Positions 4,182-63,668 of a stretch of DNA of 64,000 nucleotides are shown here, piece after piece. A program made the translations under genes and the position numbers. The notes under the pieces were generated by a model. That model made no database searches. It was given only the letters and a program-made list of their open reading frames with translations, and had not been told where the DNA came from. Source of the stretch: Pirellulaceae bacterium (GTDB lineage: Bacteria; Planctomycetota; Planctomycetia; Pirellulales; Pirellulaceae). Every line of letters begins with the position of its first letter. The first letter of the stretch is position 1. The stretch is from NCBI GenBank assembly GCA_041399065.1, contig JAWKTN010000003.1, positions 87,511-151,510 of the forward strand. The letters are read 5' to 3'.

Positions 4182-6008
4182 TCACGTGGCGATCTTGGCG
4201 AGCAACTGTCCGGTCGCAACCTGATCGCCGACAGACACGACGATCTGTTTCACAGTCCCCGACGAGGGGGCCGATACCGCGACTTCCATTTTCATCGCCT
4301 CAAGTACCAACAACGGGTCACCGGTCTTCACTCGGTCGCCAGGCTTAAGCTTCAATTTCAGTACAACACCAGGCATTTGCGCCGCCACGTCGACCACCGG
4401 TGCGTTCCCGGAATCACCGGGTGATTTTTCAGCGGATCGTTGCGTCGAAGTGCGTGCGTCGCGCTGCATCTCCACATTATACACGTTGCCATCCACCGTG
4501 ACTCGATTGCCCTGGAATGCGAGCCAATACTCTTTTCCGTTGACAACTAGTTTGTATTCGGCCGGTTTGCCGGGATCGGTCGGAGCGGCTGCGGCGGGCT
4601 GCTCCACCTTCTTGCGAATCCCCAACTCACCTTTGCCTTTGAGAAAGGCCAGTCCTTTCTCCTTGCAGGTAGAGACGATGAACACGTTTTCGTCATTGAC
4701 GGGCAGTTTTTCGTGCTCGAGTACCTTGCGTGCCGCATCTACGCCCTTTCGCGGGTCTTCGTCGTTCAATTCGAGAACTGGTCGCGTTGTTGGCTGGAGC
4801 TCCAATTGCTTGGCCGCCAGTTGGACAATTTCCGGATCGGGCGGCACGGGCGTCTTGCCAAAATAGCCCAAGACCATCTTCCCATACGGCTCGGCGATCT
4901 TCTGCCAAGGCCCAAACATCACGTTGTTGAACGCTTGCTGGAAATAGAACTGCGATACGGGCGTTACCGACGTTCCGAAACCACCACGCCGGACAACGTC
5001 GCTCATGGCTTTGATCATGTCGGTATAGCGGTCCATGATGTTATTGTCACGCAGCATTTGCGTGTTTGCCGTCAAGGCACCGCCAGGCATGGGGCTCCAG
5101 GGAATCAGCGGTTCGACCGCCGTGGCTTCGGGGGGAAGAAAATAGTCCTTCATGCAATCCTGAAACACTTCTTCGGCTTGCCGTATTTTGTCAATGTCGA
5201 CGTCCAGCGTGAATTCGCTGCCTCGAAGGGCGTGCCACATCACCAGCACGTCGGGCTGACAAGTACCACCGGAGCATGGGGCAAGTGAGAGATCGATGGC
5301 ATTGGCACCGGCATCGATGGCGGCCTTGTAGGCTAACACACTGACACCGGCGGTTTCGTGCGTGTGGAAGTGAATGTACGCATTGGCGGGCAACATCTTC
5401 CGAGCCCGCTTGATGGTTTCGTACACTTTGGACGGGACGGCGGTCCCGGACGCATCTTTGAAGCAAACTGCATCGAAGGGGATTTCGGCATCGACAATCT
5501 TCTGCAACGTTGCTTCGTAGAAGTCGGCATCGTGAGCCCCTTCGCAGCCCGGCGGTAATTCCATCATCGAGACAACGACCTGATGCTTCAGCCCGGCTTC
5601 GACAATGCATCGCCCGCTGTGGACGAGGTTGTCAACGTCGTTGAGCGCATCGAAATTACGGATAGTGGTCATGCCGTGTTTCTTGAATAGCTCCGCATGC
5701 AACTTGATGATGTCGCTGGATTGCGATTCAAGCCCAACGACATTCACACCGCGAGCCAACGTTTGCAGGTTCGCTTCGGGACCAACCGTTTTGCGGAATT
5801 GGTCCATCATCGCGAAGGCGTCTTCGTTGCAATAGAAATAGAGCGATTGGAAGCGTGCTCCCCCCCCTGCTTCGAAATAGGTAATACCCGCATCTCGTGC
5901 GGCCTCGAGGGCCGGCAGGAAGTCTGGGGTCAATACACGCGCACCGTAGACCGACTGAAAACCGTCACGGAACGCCGTGCACATGAAATCAATTTTCTTT
6001 GCCACCAT
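4182..6008 (-). CDS. oadA: Oxaloacetate decarboxylase alpha subunit / pyruvate carboxylase subunit B-like (carboxyltransferase plus biotinyl domain)
   Basis: 608 aa. TIM-barrel carboxyltransferase region (HFHTHETAGVS) and C-terminal biotin carrier with the EAMKME biotinylation motif. Directly downstream of oadB. Confidence 0.8.
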   Translation of the reverse strand: MVAKKIDFMCTAFRDGFQSVYGARVLTPDFLPALEAARDAGITYFEAGGGARFQSLYFYCNEDAFAMMDQFRKTVGPEANLQTLARGVNVVGLESQSSDIIKLHAELFKKHGMTTIRNFDALNDVDNLVHSGRCIVEAGLKHQVVVSMMELPPGCEGAHDADFYEATLQKIVDAEIPFDAVCFKDASGTAVPSKVYETIKRARKMLPANAYIHFHTHETAGVSVLAYKAAIDAGANAIDLSLAPCSGGTCQPDVLVMWHALRGSEFTLDVDIDKIRQAEEVFQDCMKDYFLPPEATAVEPLIPWSPMPGGALTANTQMLRDNNIMDRYTDMIKAMSDVVRRGGFGTSVTPVSQFYFQQAFNNVMFGPWQKIAEPYGKMVLGYFGKTPVPPDPEIVQLAAKQLELQPTTRPVLELNDEDPRKGVDAARKVLEHEKLPVNDENVFIVSTCKEKGLAFLKGKGELGIRKKVEQPAAAAPTDPGKPAEYKLVVNGKEYWLAFQGNRVTVDGNVYNVEMQRDARTSTQRSAEKSPGDSGNAPVVDVAAQMPGVVLKLKLKPGDRVKTGDPLLVLEAMKMEVAVSAPSSGTVKQIVVSVGDQVATGQLLAKIAT

Positions 6009-7818: not shown

Positions 7819-8607
7819 TCAGATCTGTGAATACTCCAATGGGGTTAGAATGTAGTCGGTGATGTTCGACACGGTGTCCTTATATTGAGGATCGGCACTG
7901 AGCGTCTTCCATCCTGCATCATTGCGGAACCGATCCCACGCGGCATCGCGAGCCACCATGTCGTCAAACACCAGCATGTACGTTAGATTGGGCATCCGAC
8001 TGCCGATGATCGTCTCACCAAAGAAAACGGGCTGCAACCCGGTACGACGAAAAATCTCAATTTCTCCCCCGTCATTGAACATCTCGATCTTCTTCTTGGC
8101 AGCCCGGCTACTGTGGCTCTCATAAACCCGCAATTCAAAGATCCGCTTCTGACCGGCCTCATGCTGCGGCGGCACTTCCACTCGCGGCATCCCGGCAAAC
8201 GCCACCATCAACGAACTCTCCATTCGCACATAATTGGGATGCGATAATTCGGCACCTAGAAAACTGGCCCCATCGCGCAGGAACTGGGCGTCATCGGCCA
8301 ACCGGTCCGCAAACGTCGCGACGGATTCCAGGCTCACATGCGGTATCAAAATGGTGACGCTCGGTTTGCTTGGGCCGTATTGCGTTTGAAAAACGCCAAT
8401 CGGTCCCGTTCCGGCGCGTCTAGCGGCCGGGAGGGCGACACCCTCAAGAAACTCATGAAATGCTTTCCGTCCGTCCCCCGGCAACAACTGGTACTCACGC
8501 CACTCCAAATAGTGACGCGATCCCCCCAACACGCTCCCCTCCCCTTCGGCCGCTGTCGCAGCCGCTAGTGAAATTCCCGTGGTCGCCAAGAAGTCTCTCC
8601 GTTTCAT
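7819..8607 (-). CDS. Tat-signal NIPSNAP-family protein (two NIPSNAP repeats)
   Basis: N-terminal RRDFLATTGISLAAATA twin-arginine signal. The IFELRVYE and LTYMLVFDDMVARDAAWDRFRNDAGW segments look like NIPSNAP domains. Confidence 0.55.
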   Translation of the reverse strand: MKRRDFLATTGISLAAATAAEGEGSVLGGSRHYLEWREYQLLPGDGRKAFHEFLEGVALPAARRAGTGPIGVFQTQYGPSKPSVTILIPHVSLESVATFADRLADDAQFLRDGASFLGAELSHPNYVRMESSLMVAFAGMPRVEVPPQHEAGQKRIFELRVYESHSSRAAKKKIEMFNDGGEIEIFRRTGLQPVFFGETIIGSRMPNLTYMLVFDDMVARDAAWDRFRNDAGWKTLSADPQYKDTVSNITDYILTPLEYSQI

Positions 8608-19618: not shown

Positions 19619-19690
19619 ACGGCTGCGACAGCCGTGGAACTCTGCGGCTGGGACAGCCGTGCGGCTGGGACAGCCGTGGAACTTTTGACC
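19619..19690. repeat. Tandem partial copies of the motif gctgggacagccgtggaac (repeat family also seen at 61085-61215)
   Basis: ggctgcgacagccgtggaactctgcggctgggacagccgtgcggctgggacagccgtggaac. Downstream, at 19760-19790, is a ttggttgggttcgg...gcgattgg segment resembling the 3' part of the 63561-63668 element. Confidence 0.8.
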
Positions 19691-21334: not shown

Positions 21335-24300
21335 ATGTTCCCACGTATCCGTTCGCAACGATCGTTTGCCATGTTGGCCTTCGGCACCTGGGTCGTGTCG
21401 ACATGGTTGACAACCGCCGCGGTAGCGGACCAGCAGGCAATGCTGGCCACCTACGATCAGCGGGGGGAAACGTATTTTGCCCTGGGTCTGCAACCGGGAC
21501 AGGAATTGGCACCAGCGGCAGCGCGCGACGTGGTGGTGTTGTTTGACACCTCGGCCAGCCAAACGGGTGTGTACCGCGACGATGCGCTGGCGGCGTTGGA
21601 GGAACTGGGCAGTCGATTGTCATCACAGGATCGCGTCCGATTGGTGGCGGTCGATATTCGGCCAGCGGATGTGACGGGGGAGTTTGTGGCGGCGAATTCG
21701 GACGCTTACCAGGCAGCGGTCGTGGCACTGGAGCAACGCGTTCCGCTTGGAGCCACAGACATGTCACTGGCGTTGTCGTATGCCGTCAAGTGTTTTGTGA
21801 AAGAGACGGCCGGTGTTCACCGAGTCGTATACATTGGCGATGGTCTCAGTCGGGCGAACCTGTTGGATTCGAAGGAGTTTGCCGAGTTGAGTGAGCAGCT
21901 AGTATCGCTGCGGGTGTCGGTATCGGCGTTTGCGATTGGTCCGCAAAGTGACATTGCTTTATTGGCGGCGATCTGCAATCAAACGGGGGGCAATCTGTTG
22001 ATCGACAATCCTGAAATCACCCCTCAAGCGGCGGGGCTTGAATTGGCCCGTTCCGTGTTGGGTGCCGTTGCCTGGCCCACGGATGTCCAACTGCCAGAAC
22101 AATTGGCTCAGGTTTATCCGACGCAACTTCCTCCGTTGCGATCTGATCGTGACACGATTTTGGTAGGTACATTGTCGAATCGTTCGGAACAGCCGTTGCC
22201 GGTCCAGGTGACGGCTTCCGTGGACGGCAAACCGACCACACTGAAATGGTCGGTCGCGCCCGCGGTTTCCAATGACGATCATGCGTACCTGCCGCGGCTG
22301 TTGGAATTGGCCGAGGCCGATCAAGGGCGCACGTTGCCTACGCTTGGCAGCGATGGACTGCGGGAAGTTCGCCGACTGCTGCTGGCCGACGCAGACACTT
22401 TTGCCAAACTCGGTGCCCAAGCCTTGGCCAGTGGCGACCACGAAGGCGCTCAACGGTTGGCCGACGCCGCATTGAAATTGGATCCGTCCAATTCAAAGGC
22501 GGAAGTGTTACATGCCGCCAGCGATCGGGGCCCTGTCGCCACCCCATCGCCGCTGCCCGAAGAAGACGGCGACGAGCCGGTATTGCGTTTGGGACAACGG
22601 CTTGCTCCCGATCCTTTCAATCCTTCGGGCCAAGAGGAGATTGTTGGCACGCCCGTCGAATCGCCATTCATCGATGCCCCGATTGATGGTACGGTCTTGC
22701 CGGCGCAAGCCATTGAATCGGTTCCAGCCCCGTTCGCCGGCACACCCGGTGGTGTGATCAGTGACAATGGCAGCTTCCTCAATGAAGTCGAACGCCGACG
22801 CAAGGCGATCGAAGGACGGGTCAAGGCGGAAGTTCGTGACGGGTTGGTGTCGGCACGTAACAATATGGCGACCAATCCCGAAGCGGCGATCGAAGATCTG
22901 AAACTGCTGTTGCAACAGGTCGTTCGCACGCCAGACATCGGCGCCGACACCCGCTCGCAAATGATTGAAGAATTGGAATCCGGGATTCGCGAATCGCAAC
23001 GCCGCAAATTTGAAAAGGATGAACGCGATGCCTGGGCCCTGTCCAACAAAGCTGCCGCCGAAGATCGCCAACGTATCCACGACGAGATGATGCGCGACGA
23101 AGTTCGCCTGAAGCAACTGATGGCTCGCTTTAACGCCATGATGGACGAAGGACGTTACCGAAAGGCCCTGGAAGTTGCCGTGCATGCCGAAGAATTGGAC
23201 TCGCGTGGCGTCGTTCCCCATAACGCTCGCTTGCTCGCCAACCTCGTCGGCAACTACGAACAAGCTCGCTACCTTCAACAACTCAAGGAAGAAGGCTTCA
23301 TCAACGCCATGATCGAAGTCCAACGTGCTCATATCCCGACTCCGGATGAACCACCATTGACCTACCCCAGCGCCGAAGTCTGGCAAGCGCTGACCAAACG
23401 CCGTGAGAAATGGAAGTCGATGGACCTGGCCGCCGGCAACAACCCGCAAGAAGAAAAGATCTCGCGGGCGCTCAATGAAGAGACCAGCGCCGAGTTTATC
23501 GAAACGCCATTGTCCGATGCCGTCGCTACCCTGGCGGAAAAACACGGTATCAACATCGAACTCGATACGCGCGCCCTGGAAGATATGGGCGTCGACAAGT
23601 CGACGCCCATCAGCCGCAACCTGTCGGGCATCACCCTCCGCTCCTTCCTGCGTTTGATCCTCAAAGAACTCGACCTCACCTACGTCATCCGTGACGAAGT
23701 GCTCCTCATCACGTCCCAAGAAGAAGCCGAATTGGCGCTGATCACCAAAGTCTATCCGGTCGCCGACCTTGTCCTCCCCATCAGCTCAGGAGGCATGGGC
23801 GGAATGGGTGGCATGGGCATGATGGGCGGCATGGGCGGAATGGGAATGGGCGGCATGGGAGGCGGAATGGGTGGCATGGGCATGGGTGGTATGGGCGGAA
23901 TGGGTGGTATGGGCATGGGCGGAATGGGTATGGGTGGAATGGGCATGGGTGGAATGGGAGGCATGGGCGGAATGGGAGGCATGGGCGGAATGTTCAATGT
24001 CGATGATTCCGTTTCCTTTTCGGCCTACGCTGTCGACGACACGCTCAGCTTGGGTAGCAAAGCCCCAGCGGGCGTCAACGATACTGCTCCTTCACTCGAC
24101 TCGAACGAGCTTCGTCCCATTACCTTGGAAGCGGAGCCCAATCTGACCGAAACGCAACAATGGGATCGCTACTTTACGCAACTCAACGAAAGCCCTGCAT
24201 ATCGTCAGCAATCCGACGAGCCGGGTGTGACGGTACAGCGTGAGAAGCACAACGCTCGGGTTCGCGAAACGGTCCGTCAGTTGATGAATGACAAGAAGTT

Positions 24301-35270: not shown

Positions 35271-35511
35271 AACCCCTGGAATCTCAATAACAACTCGCCC
35301 CCGCCCCGCACGTCGCCACGACTCCCTATCGCTGAGAGATTGGCTGACTCACAATTGGCGGTAACACGTTTCCACTGTTCAGCCCTGAATGCTAAAACGC
35401 CCTCGATGAATCTCGTGTCGGCCGGCAAATCGTGCTGCACCAATCCAGCGCAACTCCCCTCCAGGACGAGGGGACTTGGAAACACTGATTTTTCATCTAC
35501 CCACGCTCTCT

Positions 35512-36942
35512 TTATTCGTCATCATCCTCTTCGTCATCATCCTCTTCGTCATCATCCTCTTCGTCATCATCCTCGTCGTCATCATCCTCGTCGTCGTCAT
35601 CCTCGTCGTCGTCATCCTCTTCGTCATCATCCTCTTCGTCGTCATCCTCTTCGTCATCCTTTTCACTGCCAACGGAGATCTTACATTTCATGCCGGCGAC
35701 GATCGCGGGTTCGGCAAGATCGAGGACGCGGAGGACGGCGTCGAACTTGCCTTCGGCGATCGGAATCGGCGACAAACTCTTGATGCGGCCTTTCAATTCA
35801 CGGTCCGGAAAGGCCACGGGTGTCAACTTCACGGCGTGACCAGGCACAACGTGCCGCAGATGGTCTTCCGCCACCGTGGCCCGAACGGCCAAACGGCCGG
35901 GGGCGACCACGGTCAGCACGACCTGGTTCGCCTTCAGCGACCCACCTGGGCCGAGCGCCGTGGATGCGGCCGCCGGATCGCTCCACTTGCCCCGGTTCTG
36001 TCCGCCGTAGTAAACAAAGCCGTCCAACGTCGCCACAATCTTCATGATCTTTCGATCGGCGCGTAGCGACTTGAGCTTCTCCTGTAGTTGTGTGACCTCG
36101 GTACGTTTCTTCTCAACAGCAAGTTCTTCCTGTCGCACACGTCGCTGATGGGTATTCGTGACCTCCTCCAATGCAATATCGGCCTCGCGCATCGCGGTTT
36201 CCAATTGCTCTTGCGTCCGCTGCAGATCGTACTTCAGACTGCGATCGACGTTGGACTCGACACGCTTGAAGCTGAATTCCGAGGCTTGCACGTCGTCGCG
36301 AGTCCGACGTAGGATGATCTCCTCGGTTTGTTCGGTTAGATCATCCGCTTCGTACATCTGTTCCAATTGCTTCAGCTCTTCGCGTTCATAGTCCAGCCGG
36401 TTCTTCGCACTTAACAGCGATTGCTCGAGGGAAGCGCGCGTCTCGTCCTTGCCCCGGGCAATGAACTCGTCGAAATCCTCGTGGGCCTTGCGAGCCGTCC
36501 GTTGAGCGGCCGCAACGCTCATGCGGTTGGTCTGCTGGAACAATTCCAGCTTTAGTTCGGCGTCCTCCAATCCCAGCCGTGCCAAGGTCAAGTCGACGTC
36601 TGCCTGATCGATGGCTCGATCGATGTCCGCCATCTCCAATTCCACAAGCGTGTCACCACGCTCCACCCGACTGCCATGCTCGACCGCGCGCACCACTGTA
36701 AACGTCGACCACTCGCGCGGTCGCAAGATGACCTCCGCAAACCGCAAAGGCTCGAATATCCCGTCGAACTCCACGACGTCTTCCGGATTTTCCCCGGCTT
36801 TTTCGCCTCCCGCTTGATCCCCCTTGTTCGTCGCGGATTCCTCGTCCGCCGCCGTCGGATATGGAACCACGAGCAAGACCGCAAGCAGTGATAACAACAC
36901 CCCAATCCGCTGAATTGAAAGAACCGACGCAACAACTTTCAT
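35512..36942 (-). CDS. HlyD-family periplasmic adaptor (membrane fusion protein) with a ~55-aa poly-Asp/Glu C-terminal tail
   Basis: Start chosen at the internal Met MKVVASVLSIQRIGVLLSLLAVLL (signal-anchor), rather than the ORF-track start at 36984 (MPVVVAYRN...). It has a long coiled-coil hairpin region, a beta-barrel C-terminal domain (VKLTPVAFPDRELKGRIKSLSPI) and the tail KDDEEDDDEEDDDEEDDDDEDDDDEDDDDEDDDEEDDDEEDDDEEDDDE. Confidence 0.7.
   Translation of the reverse strand: MKVVASVLSIQRIGVLLSLLAVLLVVPYPTAADEESATNKGDQAGGEKAGENPEDVVEFDGIFEPLRFAEVILRPREWSTFTVVRAVEHGSRVERGDTLVELEMADIDRAIDQADVDLTLARLGLEDAELKLELFQQTNRMSVAAAQRTARKAHEDFDEFIARGKDETRASLEQSLLSAKNRLDYEREELKQLEQMYEADDLTEQTEEIILRRTRDDVQASEFSFKRVESNVDRSLKYDLQRTQEQLETAMREADIALEEVTNTHQRRVRQEELAVEKKRTEVTQLQEKLKSLRADRKIMKIVATLDGFVYYGGQNRGKWSDPAAASTALGPGGSLKANQVVLTVVAPGRLAVRATVAEDHLRHVVPGHAVKLTPVAFPDRELKGRIKSLSPIPIAEGKFDAVLRVLDLAEPAIVAGMKCKISVGSEKDDEEDDDEEDDDEEDDDDEDDDDEDDDDEDDDEEDDDEEDDDEEDDDE
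35515..35670. repeat. Tandem 15-bp-class repeats (gtcatcatcctcttc / gtcgtcatcctcgtc) encoding the acidic tail
   Basis: Direct read. Produces the mirror antisense ORFs 35476..36066 and 35238..35783 (HHPLRHHPLR...). Confidence 0.9.
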
Positions 36943-58090: not shown

Positions 58091-58502
58091 CCACTGAAGA
58101 ATAGCGCACGGAAGATTAGGGCATCACTTCATTTCGTGAGTCTCAAGTCTATAAAAATTGGGGGCTTATAACGACTAGGAAAACTCCTGGGAGGCGTTCC
58201 TGAGGGACAATCCCGCCCTGCGAGGGGTTCTGGCCGAGAATGTCGGGATTCGGGTGATCTTCGACGGTTCGCCATGCCGAATTGGGCATGGGAAGCCCTT
58301 TTTCACCATTATTTGCCGCATCTTGAATTAACTAGTTGACTTTACAGGGTCAAGAGTGTCAAATAGGAGCGGTCTCGTTGTAAGGATGAAACATTCGTTA
58401 TTCGCTATTCTTTCCTTCTCGAGACTGGGTGAGGAGGCAAAGCGGCGCGGTGCCGCGGACATGTCTCATTTTTTTATCGTTCTTTTTTTGGGAGGTGTTA
58501 GG

Positions 58503-59609
58503 ATGTCAGTACGTTCGTTGAAGAGACGAGGTTTCACGCTCGTCGAACTGTTGGTGGTGATTGCGATCATCGCCCTGCTGGTCTTGCTCTTGCTGCCAGC
58601 AATCAATGCTGCTCGCGAAGCAGCACGTCGTAATTCATGCATTAATACGGCACGTCAGTTGGGCTTGGCCTGCTTGAACCTGGAAAGTGCCACGCGTACG
58701 TATCCGTTGGCGAGCGACGCGGAATACAGGATTCTGGCAAGTACGTCGAAGGCGATGCAGCCGATCCTCGGCGGCGGCACCAGCAGCCCAAAACCTGGCA
58801 GCATTGCTGCCGGTACGATGGCGGGCTACAGCTGGATCGTGAAGATTCTTCCCTACATGGAAGAACAAAACATCTACGATACGATCTCGCAACAAGGCAA
58901 CAAGTTCCAGGTTGCGGCCTTCGATACCACCATGGTATTGCCAGGCTCGACCAACCATATTTCCAGCCGCATGATCCCTTCGGTTCACTGTGCCAGCTAC
59001 GCCGGTGACGAAGATGCTCAGGGTCGTGAATACCAACGCTACAAGTCCTCGGGCACCAACTACGTAGCCATCCCTGGTACTCACATGGAAAATCAATCCG
59101 GCCTCGGCTTGGCGGTCAAAGAAAACGGTGTGATCATCTCGGCTCGAGCTGGCCGCGGTAAAGGCCTTCGCGTTGGTGACATCTCGGACGGTGGTTCGAA
59201 GACAATCATCATCACCGAAACCAAAGAAGAGAAGTATAACGCCTGGATGGACGGTCAAGCCGCTTGGGTACAAGTCATGCCCTCGAACTCGGCGATCGTT
59301 CCGATCCGGTCACCCAAAGATGGCTTCCTCTCCATGCCCACGACCGTTACGCACATGCTGAACGTTGGTCGTGACCCAGCGAAAGTTAAACAGGGGATCA
59401 CGCAGGTTCCTTACATGACCGCCGCTACCTACCGCTCGGCGGAAGATCGTGACTGGGGCCCCAGTAGCGATCACGCGGGTGGTGTTGTAATCATGACCTT
59501 CGGTGATGTGCATACCAAGGCCGTCGCGGACCAAGTCGATTCGACCGTCCTCTATCGCCTCTGCACACGCAATGGCCGTGAACCTGCAAATGAAGATGAC
59601 ATCAACTAA
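58503..59609 (+). CDS. DUF1559 (H-X9-DG) protein with a prepilin-type N-terminal cleavage/methylation motif
   Basis: Start at the ATG at 58503 (GGGAGGTG upstream). RRGFTLVELLVVIAIIALLVLLLLPAINAAREAARRNSC. C-terminal HAGGVVIMTFGDV. Confidence 0.85.
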   Translation: MSVRSLKRRGFTLVELLVVIAIIALLVLLLLPAINAAREAARRNSCINTARQLGLACLNLESATRTYPLASDAEYRILASTSKAMQPILGGGTSSPKPGSIAAGTMAGYSWIVKILPYMEEQNIYDTISQQGNKFQVAAFDTTMVLPGSTNHISSRMIPSVHCASYAGDEDAQGREYQRYKSSGTNYVAIPGTHMENQSGLGLAVKENGVIISARAGRGKGLRVGDISDGGSKTIIITETKEEKYNAWMDGQAAWVQVMPSNSAIVPIRSPKDGFLSMPTTVTHMLNVGRDPAKVKQGITQVPYMTAATYRSAEDRDWGPSSDHAGGVVIMTFGDVHTKAVADQVDSTVLYRLCTRNGREPANEDDIN

Positions 59610-59712
59610 CTTGTTGGCGCCGAGCAGTTGTTCCCAACTGTTCCCCGTCTGTGGCAACGGCCACAAACGATTAAGTTAGCTTGATGAACCTTAATGGTTA
59701 GAATAACATTGA

Positions 59713-59747
59713 CAATCGCCCAAGGCCCCCTTGGGCGATTGTTTTTT
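59713..59747 (+). terminator. Rho-independent terminator
   Basis: A 13-bp perfect stem, caatcgcccaagg (59713-59725) pairing with ccttgggcgattg (59729-59741), a 3-nt loop, then tttttt. Confidence 0.8.
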
Positions 59748-59851
59748 ATAGTTTGACTCTTCGTGCCCCCTGCGGCTACGTGAGATAGTCTGCCCGCCAA
59801 CCAACCACGTTTCCTTGCCACCGCAAAAGATCACCAGGAGCCCACACGCCA

Positions 59852-60202
59852 ATGAGTTCGACTGGATCGTCCACCAAACCGCTTGAGATATCCGTGAAGG
59901 CAACGCACCAGATGCTGGTGGAAGGCGCCGAGTTCTGTTTTGTTGATTGCCGCACGCCAGGCGAGTCCGCCACAGCGTCGATTGCCAGTGCAACGCTCAT
60001 CCCCATGGAGACGTTAGCCGACCGATTAGGTGACTTACCTGAGGACAAAGGGCACCATATCGTCGTTCATTGCCACCACGGTGGGCGGAGCCTCCGAGTC
60101 ACGCACTGGCTAAGACAGCAAGGTTACCTCAATTGTCAAAGCATGGCCGGCGGCATCGACGCTTGGTCCGATCAGATAGATCCTACGGTTCCGAAATACT
60201 GA
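59852..60202 (+). CDS. Single-domain rhodanese-like sulfurtransferase
   Basis: 116 aa with active-site loop VVHCHHGGRS. Confidence 0.8.
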   Translation: MSSTGSSTKPLEISVKATHQMLVEGAEFCFVDCRTPGESATASIASATLIPMETLADRLGDLPEDKGHHIVVHCHHGGRSLRVTHWLRQQGYLNCQSMAGGIDAWSDQIDPTVPKY

Positions 60203-60280
60203 CCATGATGTACCCCTCTTGCTGTTATCCGTTGGCGTGACCTATAACTAGGAAATCAATTGACACGGCATGCCGTGTTT

Positions 60281-60365
60281 GGGCTTGTGGCGGAATTGGC
60301 AGACGCGCTAGACTCAGGATCTAGTCCGGGTTAACCGGGTGGAGGTTCGAATCCTCTCAGGCCCA
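60281..60365 (+). tRNA. tRNA-Leu (anticodon CAG)
   Basis: Acceptor stem gggcttg / caggccc (one G-U pair). D-stem gcg/cgc with a long D-loop. Anticodon stem ctaga/tctag with loop ctCAGga. Long variable arm tccgggttaaccgggt. T-arm ggagg-ttcgaat-cctct. Discriminator A. CCA is not encoded. Confidence 0.85.
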
Positions 60366-60500
60366 CTCAACGGCTTCATGCCCAACGTCGCGCCCGATCG
60401 GCGTCAAGATTCGGTGACGCTTGATCTCTCCGCGTCACCGGCCACTACGCTCCTTGAGGCCCAGCTCCTTGAGGCCCATCTGTAACGCTCCGGTGTCACA

Positions 60501-60655
60501 CTTGGCCCCCTCGCCGGCTTGCCCGGCAGGAGCCACAGTTTGGTTGGCTAGCGGTTCCGCGACTTCACCACCCCGGCCGAGGCGGGTGTGACAACGATTG
60601 GCACCATAGCTTTCAAACTGTGGCTCCTGCCGGGCAAGCCGGCGAGGGGGCCAAG
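60501..60655. repeat. 42-bp perfect inverted repeat with a 71-bp spacer
   Basis: Arm 1 (60501-60542) is cttggccccctcgccggcttgcccggcaggagccacagtttg. Arm 2 (60614-60655) is its exact reverse complement. It lies about 135 bp downstream of tRNA-Leu. Confidence 0.95.
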
Positions 60656-61084
60656 GAACGACACAATGTTAGTCTCGTTTTGCCATTCGCGTCAGTATTC
60701 ACTAACTCGCTGCACTTGCCAGAGCCGAACTGCCGCATGTATGTCGTCCCTCCGGGCCTGGCGTGCGGGGGAGCACGCCACCGGCAGAGGTTGTTGCGGC
60801 CCCCACGGCCGAAGGCCTGGAAGGCCTTTGCATCGATAGAACGAACGCCACCTCGAGCTCGCCGTCCCAGGGCCGAAGGCCCGACACAGTTGTGTTACGG
60901 TCCAGCGCCGGGATCGCAGTCATACTCAGAATCCCGGTACTCGTACGCACCCGTCGTCGATCGACAAGGGGTCAACATTCGTTCCATTGCCGCCGCGATC
61001 ATCGAGTACGAGTAGGAGTACCGCTGTGCTGAGTACGAGCACGGCGAAGTGCCACCCGGGTCTTTGACGCCAGCGCGTCGTGCC

Positions 61085-61215
61085 TTGCGGCGTCGCCGCG
61101 ATACGGCTGGGACAGCCGTGGAACTTTGGCAGAACGAATTGGTTCAGTGGGCGGCGAGAAGTAGCTGAGCGGTCAGGGTCGACGTTGCTCGCCGCTCCAC
61201 TGCATCCGCTAGTTC
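61085..61215. repeat. Copy of an ~100-bp imperfect-palindromic repeat family, with a gctgggacagccgtggaac head
   Basis: cggctgggacagccgtggaactttggcagaacgaattGGTTCAGTGGGCGGCGagaag...ctCGCCGCTCCACTGcatccgctagttcgtctcgatcgg. The left arm GGTTCAGTGGGCGGCG is nearly complementary to the right arm CGCCGCTCCACTG. It shares both arms and its flanks with the element at 63561-63668, and its head with 19619-19690. Confidence 0.8.
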
Positions 61216-61303
61216 GTCTCGATCGGCGTGCAAGTGATGTTGCCGACATTGGATGTGGTTGTACAATCTAATGTCGTGGGTTTGAATCTTTAGGAGTTCT
61301 GAC

Positions 61304-61555
61304 ATGATTTCCAATGAGAGCCGAGCAATAGCGGAAGAGGCGAAAAAACTCTATGAGTCTGGTCTTAGGGATGCCCTGGAACGCAACAGTTTTGGAAAAT
61401 ACGTGTCGATCGAGCCGCAATCCGGTGATCATTTTGTCGGTGAGACTTTTGACGATGCAGTTAATGCTGCCATCGACAAATATCCCTCGCGATTGACCCA
61501 CACAATCCGTGTCGGTCACCGGGCAGCATTTCATCTGGGAGTCCTGGAACAGTGA
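61304..61555 (+). CDS. Small hypothetical protein, translationally coupled (ATGA overlap) to the downstream gene; lower GC than the surroundings
   Basis: 83-aa ORF. The locally reduced GC content extends through the partner gene. Its stop overlaps the next start. Confidence 0.5.
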   Translation: MISNESRAIAEEAKKLYESGLRDALERNSFGKYVSIEPQSGDHFVGETFDDAVNAAIDKYPSRLTHTIRVGHRAAFHLGVLEQ

Positions 61556-61914
61556 TTGGATTTGTAGATGAAGAACTAAGGGCACTTCTTCAAGTTCAAG
61601 TGTCCGCCGAGAAGGGCGGCGAAAAGACACCTTTGGACGTCTGGGTTGACACGGCATTCAACGGTGGGCTGGTAATTCCGAGAGACAGAATTGCGGTCCT
61701 GGGATTGTCGAAATCGTCGTCCACGGAGGCCATTCTCGCCGACGGCCAGCTGGTGGAACTGGAAACATTCGCGTGCTATCTCGACTGGTTTGGAACAGAA
61801 TATCGCACACAAGTGATCGCTAATGACGGACAGTTCCCGTTGTTGGGGACAATGTTGCTCGCCAAACGCCGATTGTTGGTGGACTACTCGAAACGGGCGT
61901 TGTCTCTGGAGTAG
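61552..61914 (+). CDS. Putative retropepsin-like (clan AA) aspartic peptidase domain protein
   Basis: 120 aa. VWVDTAFNGGLVIPRDRIAVLGL resembles the D-T/S-G-A catalytic loop context (DTA instead of DTG). Its size fits single-domain bacterial retropepsin-like proteins. Low confidence. Confidence 0.4.
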   Translation: MIGFVDEELRALLQVQVSAEKGGEKTPLDVWVDTAFNGGLVIPRDRIAVLGLSKSSSTEAILADGQLVELETFACYLDWFGTEYRTQVIANDGQFPLLGTMLLAKRRLLVDYSKRALSLE

Positions 61915-61935
61915 TCGCGCGACGAACGGTTGGAT

Positions 61936-62166
61936 TCACCGAGCCGACGGAGTAGAGCCACCATCAAGCTGCGGCTGTTCGTCGGCTTCGGTGCAATCCT
62001 TGGTTCGTCCATACGGTCCCTGATCTGCCAAGTTGATCGTACGCGCACGTAGGGACTTTTGTATTGACGCGTAATACTCACGCAGTCGTTTCGGATCATG
62101 TCCGACTTCGGCGGAGATCTCGTGCCGTACCCTTCGTACTTCTTCGAGTATGGGCGGAGTTGTCAT
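61936..62166 (-). CDS. Small hypothetical protein downstream of the PIN gene (possible antitoxin-like partner)
   Basis: 76 aa, 4 nt downstream of the PIN ORF on the same strand. No family recognised. Confidence 0.35.
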   Translation of the reverse strand: MTTPPILEEVRRVRHEISAEVGHDPKRLREYYASIQKSLRARTINLADQGPYGRTKDCTEADEQPQLDGGSTPSAR

Positions 62167-63560: not shown

Positions 63561-63668
63561 CGACAGAACGCTACGGTTCAGTGGGCGGCGTGAGTTGACT
63601 TTCCATCCGAACACGCCCGGTTACGCCGCTCCACTCAAACCGTTGGTTCGGCGACTGCGATCGGACAT
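63561..63668. repeat. Second copy of the imperfect-palindromic repeat family
   Basis: cagaacgctacGGTTCAGTGGGCGGCGtgagttgactttccatccgaacacgcccggttaCGCCGCTCCACTCaaaccgttggttcggcgactgcgatcgg. Compare 61085-61215. Confidence 0.8.

What the first reader, a model, noticed from the sequence alone, without database searches (positions are those of the whole stretch)
60501..60655. 42-bp perfect inverted repeat (156-bp hairpin-capable element) next to tRNA-Leu
A perfect 42/42 inverted repeat with a 71-nt spacer is statistically extraordinary in unconstrained DNA. It could be the terminal inverted repeats of a ~156-bp MITE-like element, a recombinase or att-associated site for the adjacent islet, or a long stem-loop RNA. 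Shorter palindromes (ggccgaaggcc x2; gagtacgag motifs) follow at 60800-61030.
Basis: seen in the sequence. Interest (0 to 1): 0.55.

Follow-up and report, generated by a model that had tools for sequence, protein, structure and literature searches.

The report
REP-like hairpin repeat doublet
The perfect 42-bp inverted repeat is real, but it is one copy of a small palindromic repeat family scattered through Pirellulales (planctomycete) genomes, whose units also flank an IS200-type hairpin-recognising transposase gene, so it is a miniature mobile-element relic of a known general kind rather than a unique structure.

Summary
In detail: arms 60501-60542 and 60614-60655 are 42/42 complementary with a 71-nt spacer, far beyond chance. 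It is the only copy in this 64-kb window.

Each arm is one unit of a dispersed repeat family. The core CCCCT(C)GCCGG-CTTGY-CCGGCAGG...AGTTT occurs many times per genome in Pirellulales MAGs and on at least 120 metagenome contigs. Each unit holds its own 8-bp hairpin with a conserved 5-nt loop. The stem shows strong compensatory variation.

Units usually sit as convergent doublets 60-165 nt apart, mostly outside ORFs, with no target-site duplication. The same units bracket a ~267-aa Pfam Y1_Tnp (IS200-like HUH) gene in 9 loci found through the DNA motif. All 5 loci found through the protein and tested for units also carry flanking units.

The best reading is a REPIN/BIME-like, non-autonomous doublet acted on as single-stranded DNA by a Y1 transposase. 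No such gene lies in the window, and mobility was not shown.

The MITE idea is right in spirit (a dispersed non-autonomous element) but wrong in mechanism. The att-site and unique-RNA readings are unsupported.

A side finding is that the partner protein is a fused tandem of two Y1 domains with split catalytic motifs.

The parts
60501..60542 (+). Left arm, one 'A-type' repeat unit: CTTGG-CCCCCTCGCCGGCTTGCCCGGCAGGAGC-CAC-AGTTTG
   Evidence: Perfect inverted-repeat arm. Matches the family unit profile at 60502-60552, E 2.7e-14, and 44.5 bits in round 3. Its 29-nt core is identical to units flanking the Y1 gene in L077.
60509..60530 (+). Internal unit hairpin. The 5' stem is CCT(C)GCCGG, the loop is CTTGC, and the 3' stem is CCGGCAGG. 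This gives 8 bp with one bulged C at 60512.
   Evidence: DNA fold of 60505-60535 gives this structure. The same helix shows covariation across 81 distinct units: 91% of cells paired, 6 of 8 pairs with compensated changes, 0 of 500 shuffles as high.
60543..60613 (.). The 71-nt spacer. Its left end (GTTGGCTAGC, 60543-60552) keeps the family's GGCTA motif. The rest is unique and forms a weak central hairpin.
   Evidence: The family consensus extends to GGCTAAG. The spacer has no match in any other locus.
60614..60655 (-). Right arm, a second A-type unit in inverted orientation. Its internal hairpin is at 60626-60647.
   Evidence: Unit profile hit at 60605-60656 on the - strand, E 1.8e-13, and 44.9 bits.

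Best explanation
The 155-bp element is a REPIN/BIME-like doublet. It consists of two inverted copies of a ~40-nt REP-like unit from a repeat family dispersed through Pirellulales genomes. Each unit carries a small imperfect hairpin: an 8-bp stem, usually one bulged C, and a conserved CTTGY loop. A CCCC tract lies 5' of the hairpin and an AGTTT motif lies about 8-13 nt 3' of it. The family's autonomous form is a gene for a ~267-aa IS200-like Y1 (HUH) transposase, bracketed by the same units pointing inward. The doublet is the gene-less version. Proposed mechanism, inferred by analogy with IS200/IS605 TnpA and RAYT: the Y1 enzyme binds the unit hairpin in single-stranded DNA, for example on the lagging-strand template. 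It cuts next to the hairpin and moves or copies the doublet without making a target-site duplication. The window copy sits in the non-coding gap between tRNA-Leu and a cluster of toxin-antitoxin-type genes. It has no partner gene within 64 kb, so it depends on an enzyme encoded elsewhere or is a stranded relic. Shown here: family membership, hairpin covariation, the doublet arrangement, extragenic bias, and physical linkage of units to the Y1 gene. Inferred: catalysis, single-stranded DNA mobility, and any current activity of this copy.
For: Family: the central 22-mer of the arm occurs in 36 genome stretches. About 30 of these are in Pirellulales MAGs, with 13 matches in SMAG_U13890, 8 in SJ586 and 5 in SMAG_U2115, in different flanks and often at contig ends. 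A unit profile finds 264 units in 153 loci. Among close neighbour pairs, 56 are convergent, 21 are ++, 17 are --, and 8 are divergent; convergent spacers run 19-165 nt, median 116.

Hairpin: 8 pairs are 91% paired, 6 of 8 pairs have changes on both sides, and there are 60 compensated cells against 13.8 in shuffles (0/500). Slid controls give 23-50% paired.

Extragenic bias: 36% of units fall inside greedy ORFs, which cover 83% of the loci.

Enzyme link: the ORF at L077 4899-5705(-), lying between two doublets, matches Pfam Y1_Tnp at E 8e-11 and 42.5 bits (cut-off 23). Homologues at 45-100% identity lie next to units in L032, L147, L162, L086, L121 and L154, with a fragment in L151 and a 27%-identity relative in L102. 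The geometry is unit-> gene <-unit.

Independent test: all 5 loci fetched through the protein and scanned for units have flanking units or co-diverged versions with the same architecture (L166-168; L171-172). Short contigs break inside the units.

The protein's fold matches ISDra2/IS608/IS200 TnpA, with TM 0.70-0.77 normalised to the target. IMG names family members 'REP element-mobilizing transposase RayT'.
Against: Only one copy lies in the 64-kb window, and no Y1 homologue is there. The rest of the source genome could not be searched, so multi-copy status and a partner enzyme in this organism are unproven. No presence/absence polymorphism or empty site was found. Held orthologous loci all carry the element, and the nearest rhodanese homologues are at most 63% identical and lack the tRNA. 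The protein does not reach NCBIfam cut-offs for either IS200 (38 bits against 55) or RAYT (19 against 80). The units lack the GTAG/CGTC tag of classical REPs. Covariation in a palindrome is also compatible with a dimeric double-stranded-DNA-binding protein. Loci were selected with the motif itself, which biases the statistics on core conservation.
Confidence: 0.72

Rival explanations
1. A classical MITE: an internally deleted DDE-type insertion sequence whose 42-bp arms are the transposase-binding terminal inverted repeats, inserted with a target-site duplication.
For: It is small, palindromic, non-coding and belongs to a dispersed family. Some lineage-specific long forms carry extra outer inverted repeats, GTTGTTCTACACA...TGTGTAGAACAAC.
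Against: No direct repeat flanks the window copy or the other doublets. Nothing is conserved outside the unit. In most doublets the two arms are different unit types, each keeping its own hairpin, rather than matching termini. Units also occur singly and in tandem arrays. The only linked gene is a Y1/HUH enzyme, not a DDE transposase.
Confidence: 0.05
2. Its primary role is host function: a structured RNA, a transcription terminator or mRNA/tRNA 3'-end stabiliser, or a protein-binding site, with repeat spread being incidental.
For: The hairpin is very stable on either strand, 134 nt downstream of tRNA-Leu. Orthologous copies are retained between genomes with about 95% identical flanks (L022/L108). 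REP elements in other bacteria are known to have been co-opted for such roles (established knowledge; abstract of PMC3733652).
Against: No Rfam family reaches its threshold; only spurious microRNA-hairpin hits appear. No T-run or terminator-like site lies at the element. The structure is symmetric on both strands. The conserved asymmetric loop, covarying stem and Y1 gene linkage together explain the family without an RNA role.
Confidence: 0.15
3. A recombination (att-type) site marking the edge of the toxin-antitoxin islet next to tRNA-Leu.
For: It lies between a tRNA gene and a cluster of PIN, zeta-toxin and DUF2442 genes. Synteny with relatives ends after the rhodanese gene.
Against: The window has no direct repeat of the tRNA 3' end, and no integrase was seen in the part of the islet held. 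The same unit occurs in dozens of unrelated contexts. A different pair of attC-like repeats (61130-61216 and 63564-63650) is a better candidate for cassette boundaries.
Confidence: 0.03
4. A one-off local inverted duplication, or an assembly fold-back artefact.
For: The arms are perfectly identical and the spacer is unique. No independent contig spans the whole element.
Against: The arm boundaries coincide with the boundaries of a family unit found in hundreds of places. Near-perfect homotypic doublets occur independently in L074 (44/44), L042 (43/44) and L047 (40/44). An independent contig (L002) confirms the left arm plus 13 nt of spacer.
Confidence: 0.03

Closest known systems
REP / BIME / REPIN elements with RAYT (TnpA-REP) transposases of Proteobacteria (E. 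coli, Pseudomonas)
   Same: Both have short extragenic imperfect-palindrome units in many copies, commonly as inverted doublets that can fold into one long hairpin. Both have distinct unit types paired within doublets, like the Y/Z REPs in BIMEs. In both, a Y1/HUH gene is bracketed by inverted units and there is no target-site duplication.
   Different: There is no GTAG or CGTC tag. The enzyme has the IS200-type Y-x-x-x-Q motif rather than the RAYT YIxxNP motif. It scores below the NCBIfam RAYT cut-off and matches the RAYT structure 4er8 worse than IS200-type TnpA structures. The enzyme is a fused tandem of two Y1 domains. In at least one genome the gene is multi-copy, with three copies in 9 kb (L171).
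Class 3 TnpA-Y1 'REPtron-like' systems of Planctomycetes, Acidobacteria and Proteobacteria (Quentin et al. 2018, PMC6006769)
   Same: These are Y1 genes in Planctomycetes flanked by atypical hairpins that can reach high copy number, and they were described as intermediate between IS and REPtron.
   Different: Class 3 is described with an NHVH HuH motif, a YV[VI]xEQ Tyr motif, a median length of 178 aa and a CnGA foot. Here the motifs are PDHLH and VEAYIxxQ, the length is about 267 aa with two Y1 domains, and no CnGA foot is conserved.
IS200/IS605 insertion sequences and their gene-less derivatives (PATEs)
   Same: The best sequence and fold matches of the enzyme are ISDra2, IS608 and IS200 TnpA. 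Both use subterminal imperfect hairpins with an extrahelical base and a conserved motif a few nucleotides from the hairpin, and neither makes a target duplication.
   Different: IS200/IS605 ends carry hairpins in the same orientation on one strand, whereas here the units are inverted. The enzyme is a single-chain tandem rather than a ~140-aa homodimer. It scores below the NCBIfam IS200 cut-off.
TIR-type bacterial MITEs (Correia/NEMIS, ERIC/IRU, RUP)
   Same: Similar size (100-200 bp), palindromic, intergenic and dispersed.
   Different: Those elements have DDE partners and target-site duplications. Neither is seen here.

Membership tests
REP/REPIN-RAYT system | The unit is a short (20-40 nt) imperfect palindrome able to form a hairpin | tested here: met
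   An 8-bp stem, 5-nt loop and bulged C. Covariation across 81 units is 91% paired, with 6 of 8 pairs compensated and 0/500 shuffles as high.
REP/REPIN-RAYT system | Many dispersed, mostly extragenic copies per genome | tested here: inconclusive
   Met in relatives: 13, 8 and 5 exact-core copies in three fragmented MAGs, and 36% of units in ORFs against 83% ORF coverage. Not established for the source genome, where only one doublet lies in 64 kb.
REP/REPIN-RAYT system | Units commonly paired in inverted orientation (REPIN/BIME) | tested here: met
   56 of 102 close neighbour pairs are convergent, with spacers of 19-165 nt. The window copy is one of these.
REP/REPIN-RAYT system | A Y1/HUH transposase gene flanked by inverted units | tested here: met
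   L077/L032, L147/L162, L086, L121 and L154. All 5 protein-selected loci scanned for units have them. No such gene lies in the window.
REP/REPIN-RAYT system | Conserved GTAG or CGTC tetranucleotide at the hairpin foot | tested here: not met
   The information-content profile shows the conserved core cG.CCCCT...AGTTT, with no GTAG or CGTC and nothing conserved outside it.
REP/REPIN-RAYT system | Enzyme carries RAYT (class 2) signatures: the YIxxNP Tyr motif and the NCBIfam REP_Tyr_transpos model | tested here: not met
   No Y..NP motif in any six-frame ORF of the loci held at that point (L001-L045) or of the window. REP_Tyr_transpos scores 19 bits against a cut-off of 80. The Tyr motif is VEAYIxxQ.
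REP/REPIN-RAYT system | Enzyme gene is single-copy per genome (domesticated) | tested here: inconclusive
   One copy among housekeeping genes in L172, but three copies within 9 kb in L171, and a degraded second copy beside the gene in L077. Whole genomes were not available.
IS200/IS605 family | TnpA of the Y1_Tnp fold with an HUH motif and a catalytic Tyr | tested here: met
   Pfam PF01797 at E 8e-11. Foldseek top hits are ISDra2/IS608/IS200 TnpA. H211, H213, Y121 and Q125 are conserved in 98 sequences. However, it scores below the NCBIfam IS200 cut-off, 38 against 55 bits.
IS200/IS605 family | Left and right end hairpins in the same orientation on the active strand | tested here: not met
   Units flanking the gene are inverted relative to each other.
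TIR-type MITE | Target-site duplication and a related DDE insertion sequence | tested here: not met
   No flanking direct repeats, no conserved flank, and no DDE gene linked to the units.
Class 3 TnpA-Y1 (Quentin et al. 2018) | NHVH HuH motif, Y----Q Tyr motif, about 178 aa, CnGA foot | tested here: not met
   The motifs here are PDHLH and Y-I-x-x-Q, and the length is about 267 aa. Compared against the paper's table and text.
Integron attC site | Imperfect palindrome with R''/R' (AAC...GTT) boxes and extrahelical bases at cassette boundaries | tested here: not met
   The 42-bp arms are perfect, lack R boxes and belong to the Y1-linked family. A different repeat pair in the islet looks attC-like.

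The most novel reading that the evidence does not exclude
The repeat family is serviced by an undescribed kind of Y1 transposase: a single polypeptide made of two fused IS200-like domains with complementary losses. The N-terminal domain keeps the catalytic Tyr helix (VEAYIxxQ) but has IQLTFS in place of HUH. The C-terminal domain keeps HUH (PDHLH) but lacks the Tyr helix. One chain would therefore mimic the TnpA homodimer with a single composite 'trans' active site. This enzyme co-evolves with two distinct hairpin unit types (A and B) that pair in doublets. If so, the window element belongs to a separate planctomycete branch of REP/RAYT-like systems, and it offers a natural single-site model for HUH single-strand transposition.
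Probability: 0.45. Interest if true: 0.6.

Novelty: new member of a known kind. Interest (0 to 1): 0.35.

Why it matters
The result explains a statistically extraordinary palindrome as an ordinary class of object: a REP/REPIN-type repeat. It shows that uncultured soil and freshwater Pirellulales carry an abundant hairpin repeat family with its own Y1 transposase.

In practical terms, these units probably fragment MAG assemblies. Many copies sit at contig ends, and roughly 1-kb contigs hold only the transposase gene.

Biologically, the family gives a new, sequence-defined hairpin-enzyme pair outside Proteobacteria. The partner enzyme's fused two-domain architecture, if confirmed, would allow a direct test of how the trans-assembled active site of IS200-type enzymes works.

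Tried and rejected
- **Rfam.** An E-value scan of 59500-62000 found only the tRNA above threshold. The mir-28 and mir-602 hits are generic hairpin matches far below their gathering scores.
- **Viral contigs.** The arm core gave 0 hits.
- **Metagenome scan for the unique left flank**, hoping for strain variants with an empty site: 0 hits.
- **Empty-site search.** Joined flanks of every element block, compared against all held loci, recovered only filled orthologues.
- **Orthologous locus in relatives via the rhodanese gene.** The nearest homologues are at most 63% identical. Two long contigs (L169, L170) have no tRNA-Leu after the gene, so no comparison is possible.
- **Partner gene in the source organism.** No Y1 homologue lies in the window by tblastn or a family HMM on six frames. 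Five close family members traced to their samples are all from other samples. Cluster look-up gave no sample names.
- **RAYT motif.** The regex Y..NP found nothing in the loci held at that point or in the window.
- **Internal duplication.** hhalign of the N half against the C half was not significant. The duplication was shown instead by the N-half profile against PDB and by the predicted structure.
- **tRNA-derived att repeat.** None found.
- **Chance matches.** Hits of the 22-mer in Burkholderiales, Streptomyces and Desulfatibacillum are chance or coding matches without the rest of the unit and were excluded.
- **Literature.** Searches found no description of this repeat family or of a tandem Y1 enzyme. 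This is limited to the held library.

Full report
**Observation.** The window holds a perfect inverted repeat, with arms at 60501-60542 and 60614-60655. The arms are 42/42 complementary and 71 nt apart. The arm sequence occurs nowhere else in the 64 kb even with three mismatches, and no dinucleotide shuffle produces a match. A sensitive blastn finds no partial copy. The 155-bp element folds into one long hairpin, both as RNA (-135.6 kcal/mol, z -13.8) and as DNA (-75.7 kcal/mol, z -13.5). tRNA-Leu(CAG) lies at 60281-60366.

**Setting.** Upstream genes are a DUF1559/N-methyl protein (58356-59609), typical of Planctomycetes, and a rhodanese (59852-60202). Downstream, after about 650 nt of non-coding DNA, come small genes of toxin-antitoxin type: PIN, zeta-toxin/AAA and DUF2442. 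The exact rhodanese sequence belongs to an NCBI MAG labelled Pirellulaceae bacterium. Contigs of the same species from other assemblies end at window positions 60495, 60505 and 60555, at or just inside the left arm. The next contig starts at 61064. That pattern fits a repeat- or hairpin-induced break but proves nothing on its own.

**The arm is a unit of a dispersed family.** A scan of one genome per species for the central 22-mer of the arm returned 36 stretches. About 30 are in Pirellulales MAGs, with many per genome: 13 matches in SMAG_U13890, 8 in SJ586 and 5 in SMAG_U2115. They lie in different flanking sequence and often at contig ends. The few hits in Burkholderiales, Streptomyces and Desulfatibacillum share only the 22-mer and are chance or coding matches.

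Aligned copies give the consensus CCGCCCCCTCGCCGGCTTGCCCGGCAGGAGCG-NN-AGTTTG-NNN-GGCTAAG.

A profile built from the copies finds 264 units in 153 loci. Among close neighbour pairs, 56 are convergent (-> <-), with spacers of 19-165 nt (median 116). This compares with 21 '++', 17 '--' and 8 divergent pairs. The window element is one such convergent doublet, with a 71-nt spacer.

Information content falls to zero immediately outside the unit. No direct repeats flank the window copy or other doublets. Units are depleted in ORFs: 36% lie inside greedy ORFs, which cover 83% of the loci.

**Each unit has its own hairpin.** Inside the arm, CCT(C)GCCGG-CTTGC-CCGGCAGG forms an 8-bp stem with a bulged C and a 5-nt loop. 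Across 81 distinct units this helix is 91% paired. Six of its eight pairs show changes on both sides, for example GCCGG/CCGGC, GCCAG/CTGGC, GCCCG/CGGGC, GTCGG/CCGAC and GGTTGG/CCAACC. There are 60 compensated cells against 13.8 in shuffles (0 of 500 as high), and slid controls drop to 23-50% paired. The loop CTTGY stays constant. A covarying stem with a conserved asymmetric loop is the signature of a hairpin read in single-stranded nucleic acid. A dimeric double-stranded-DNA binder cannot be strictly excluded.

**Two unit types.** 'A' ends in ...GGCAGGAGCG, as in the window. 'B' has the form GACCCCTCGCCAGCTTGYCTGGCAGGTGAAGCAG. By a crude classification, 29 of 49 distinct doublets are A/B. Only four doublets have nearly identical arms: L074 (44/44), L042 (43/44), L047 (40/44) and the window. 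The window copy is thus the rarer homotypic form. Its perfect identity ends exactly where the unit ends, at AGTTTG, after which the two sides differ.

**Link to a transposase.** In L077, a 268-aa ORF at 4899-5705(-) lies between two doublets. It matches Pfam Y1_Tnp (IS200-like) at E 8e-11 and 42.5 bits, against a cut-off of 23. The identical gene sits between units in L032, a contig of one of the MAGs rich in units. Homologues of 45-48% identity lie beside units in L147, L162, L086, L121 and L154, with a fragment in L151 and a 27% relative in L102. The usual geometry is unit-> gene <-unit, so the gene occupies the place of a doublet's spacer.

As an independent test, five loci were fetched through the protein rather than the DNA motif and scanned for units. 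All five have flanking units. In L166-L168 these are typical units, and two ~1-kb contigs begin or end inside a unit. In the more distant L171 and L172 they are co-diverged units with the same architecture: CCCC, an 8-bp covarying stem, a CT[CT]GY loop and TGAAGCAGATTG.

The protein family has at least 1250 members of about 260-285 aa, and IMG labels many 'REP element-mobilizing transposase RayT'. No homologue lies in the window. Attempts to find one from the same samples failed.

**What it most likely is and does.** The element is a gene-less doublet of a REP-like hairpin repeat whose autonomous relative encodes a Y1/HUH transposase. From established knowledge of IS200/IS605 TnpA and RAYT enzymes, the enzyme would recognise the small hairpin in single-stranded DNA and cut at a nearby conserved motif. 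The AGTTT motif 8-13 nt 3' of the hairpin is a candidate. The enzyme would then move or copy the element without a target duplication. These steps are inferred; no mobility event was observed.

**Comparison with known systems.** The system works like REP/BIME/REPIN-RAYT. It fails several membership features of the classical family. There is no GTAG/CGTC tag. The enzyme has the IS200-type YxxxQ motif rather than YIxxNP and is sub-threshold for both the NCBIfam IS200 and RAYT models. Its fold is closer to ISDra2/IS608/IS200 TnpA (TM 0.70-0.77) than to E. coli RAYT 4er8 (0.48). In one genome it is multi-copy. It also differs from the 'class 3' Y1 proteins that Quentin et al. reported in Planctomycetes, which have NHVH, Y----Q, about 178 aa and a CnGA foot. 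It differs from IS200/IS605 in having inverted rather than co-oriented end hairpins.

**Side finding on the enzyme.** A high-confidence AlphaFold model of P0004 (pLDDT 94, pTM 0.90) shows the beta-alpha-beta-beta-alpha-beta(-alpha) unit twice. A profile of the N-terminal half alone hits ISDra2 and IS608 TnpA across the whole domain (E 1e-6 to 1e-5). In that alignment IQLTFS sits in the place of HUH, and VEAYIxxQ aligns to the catalytic Tyr helix. The C-terminal half carries PDHLH but has no Tyr helix. Y121, Q125 and H213 are invariant, and H211 is at least 90% conserved, in 98 sequences. This suggests a single-chain pseudo-dimer with one composite active site. No description of this was found in the held literature.

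**Rivals.** A DDE-type MITE is disfavoured: there is no duplication, no DDE partner and the arms are usually heterotypic. An att site is unsupported: there is no tRNA-derived repeat and the family occurs in unrelated contexts. A one-off duplication or artefact is unlikely, because the arm boundaries coincide with family unit boundaries and similar homotypic doublets exist elsewhere. A co-opted RNA or terminator role cannot be excluded, but it has no positive evidence.

**Verdict.** This is a real feature and an ordinary kind of object: a new family member of REP/REPIN-like Y1-associated repeats. Its status in the source genome is unproven beyond this one copy.

Noticed in passing
L077 4899-5705(-), L032 6471-7274(+), proteins P0002-P0120 (not in the window): The Y1 transposase linked to the repeat family is a fused tandem of two IS200-like domains. 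The N half keeps the Tyr motif VEAYIxxQ but has IQLTFS instead of HUH. The C half keeps PDHLH but lacks the Tyr helix. The AF2 model has pLDDT 94. The N-half profile hits ISDra2 TnpA at E 1e-6.
   Followed up: partly
window 61130-61216 and 63564-63650: Two roughly 82% identical direct repeats lie 2434 bp apart and bracket three toxin-antitoxin-type gene pairs. Each folds as an imperfect hairpin (GTGGGCGGCG...CGCCGCTCCAC with one extrahelical T), flanked by ...AGAAC and GTTCG... boxes. This is reminiscent of integron attC sites or cassette boundaries. No integrase was seen in the held part.
   Followed up: partly
window 19619-19686 (three tandem copies), 61103-61128, and inverted at 8545-8572: A second small hairpin repeat, ACGGCTG(G/C)GACAGCCGTGGAACTTTG, has a 7-bp stem. 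It has five copies in the window but is absent from all fetched loci of other genomes. It may be another REP-like family specific to this organism, and one copy lies 450 bp right of the 42-bp inverted repeat.
   Followed up: partly
window 60449-60478: A perfect tandem duplication of GCTCCTTGAGGCCCA (2 x 15 nt) lies between tRNA-Leu and the inverted repeat.
   Followed up: no
window 60802-60817 and 60866-60881: Two copies of CCCA(C/G)GGCCGAAGGCC, each containing the small palindrome GGCC-GAA-GGCC, lie 64 nt apart in the non-coding stretch right of the element. They are not related to the unit family.
   Followed up: no
L171 10001-10795, 16657-17451, 17931-18725: Three copies of the tandem-Y1 gene lie within 9 kb of one metagenome contig, each with diverged flanking hairpin units, next to IS21-type genes. 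In this genome the system behaves like a multi-copy insertion sequence rather than a single-copy domesticated gene.
   Followed up: partly
L012 and L033 (period 92 nt); L018 2380-2512 (period 51 nt): Units of the family also form head-to-tail tandem arrays, not only inverted doublets.
   Followed up: no
window 35486-35688 and 23789-23998: Coding-type tandem repeats: a 15-nt period (TCGTCATCATCCTCT, acidic on the opposite strand) and GGCATGGGC-type 9-nt repeats (Gly/Met-rich).
   Followed up: no
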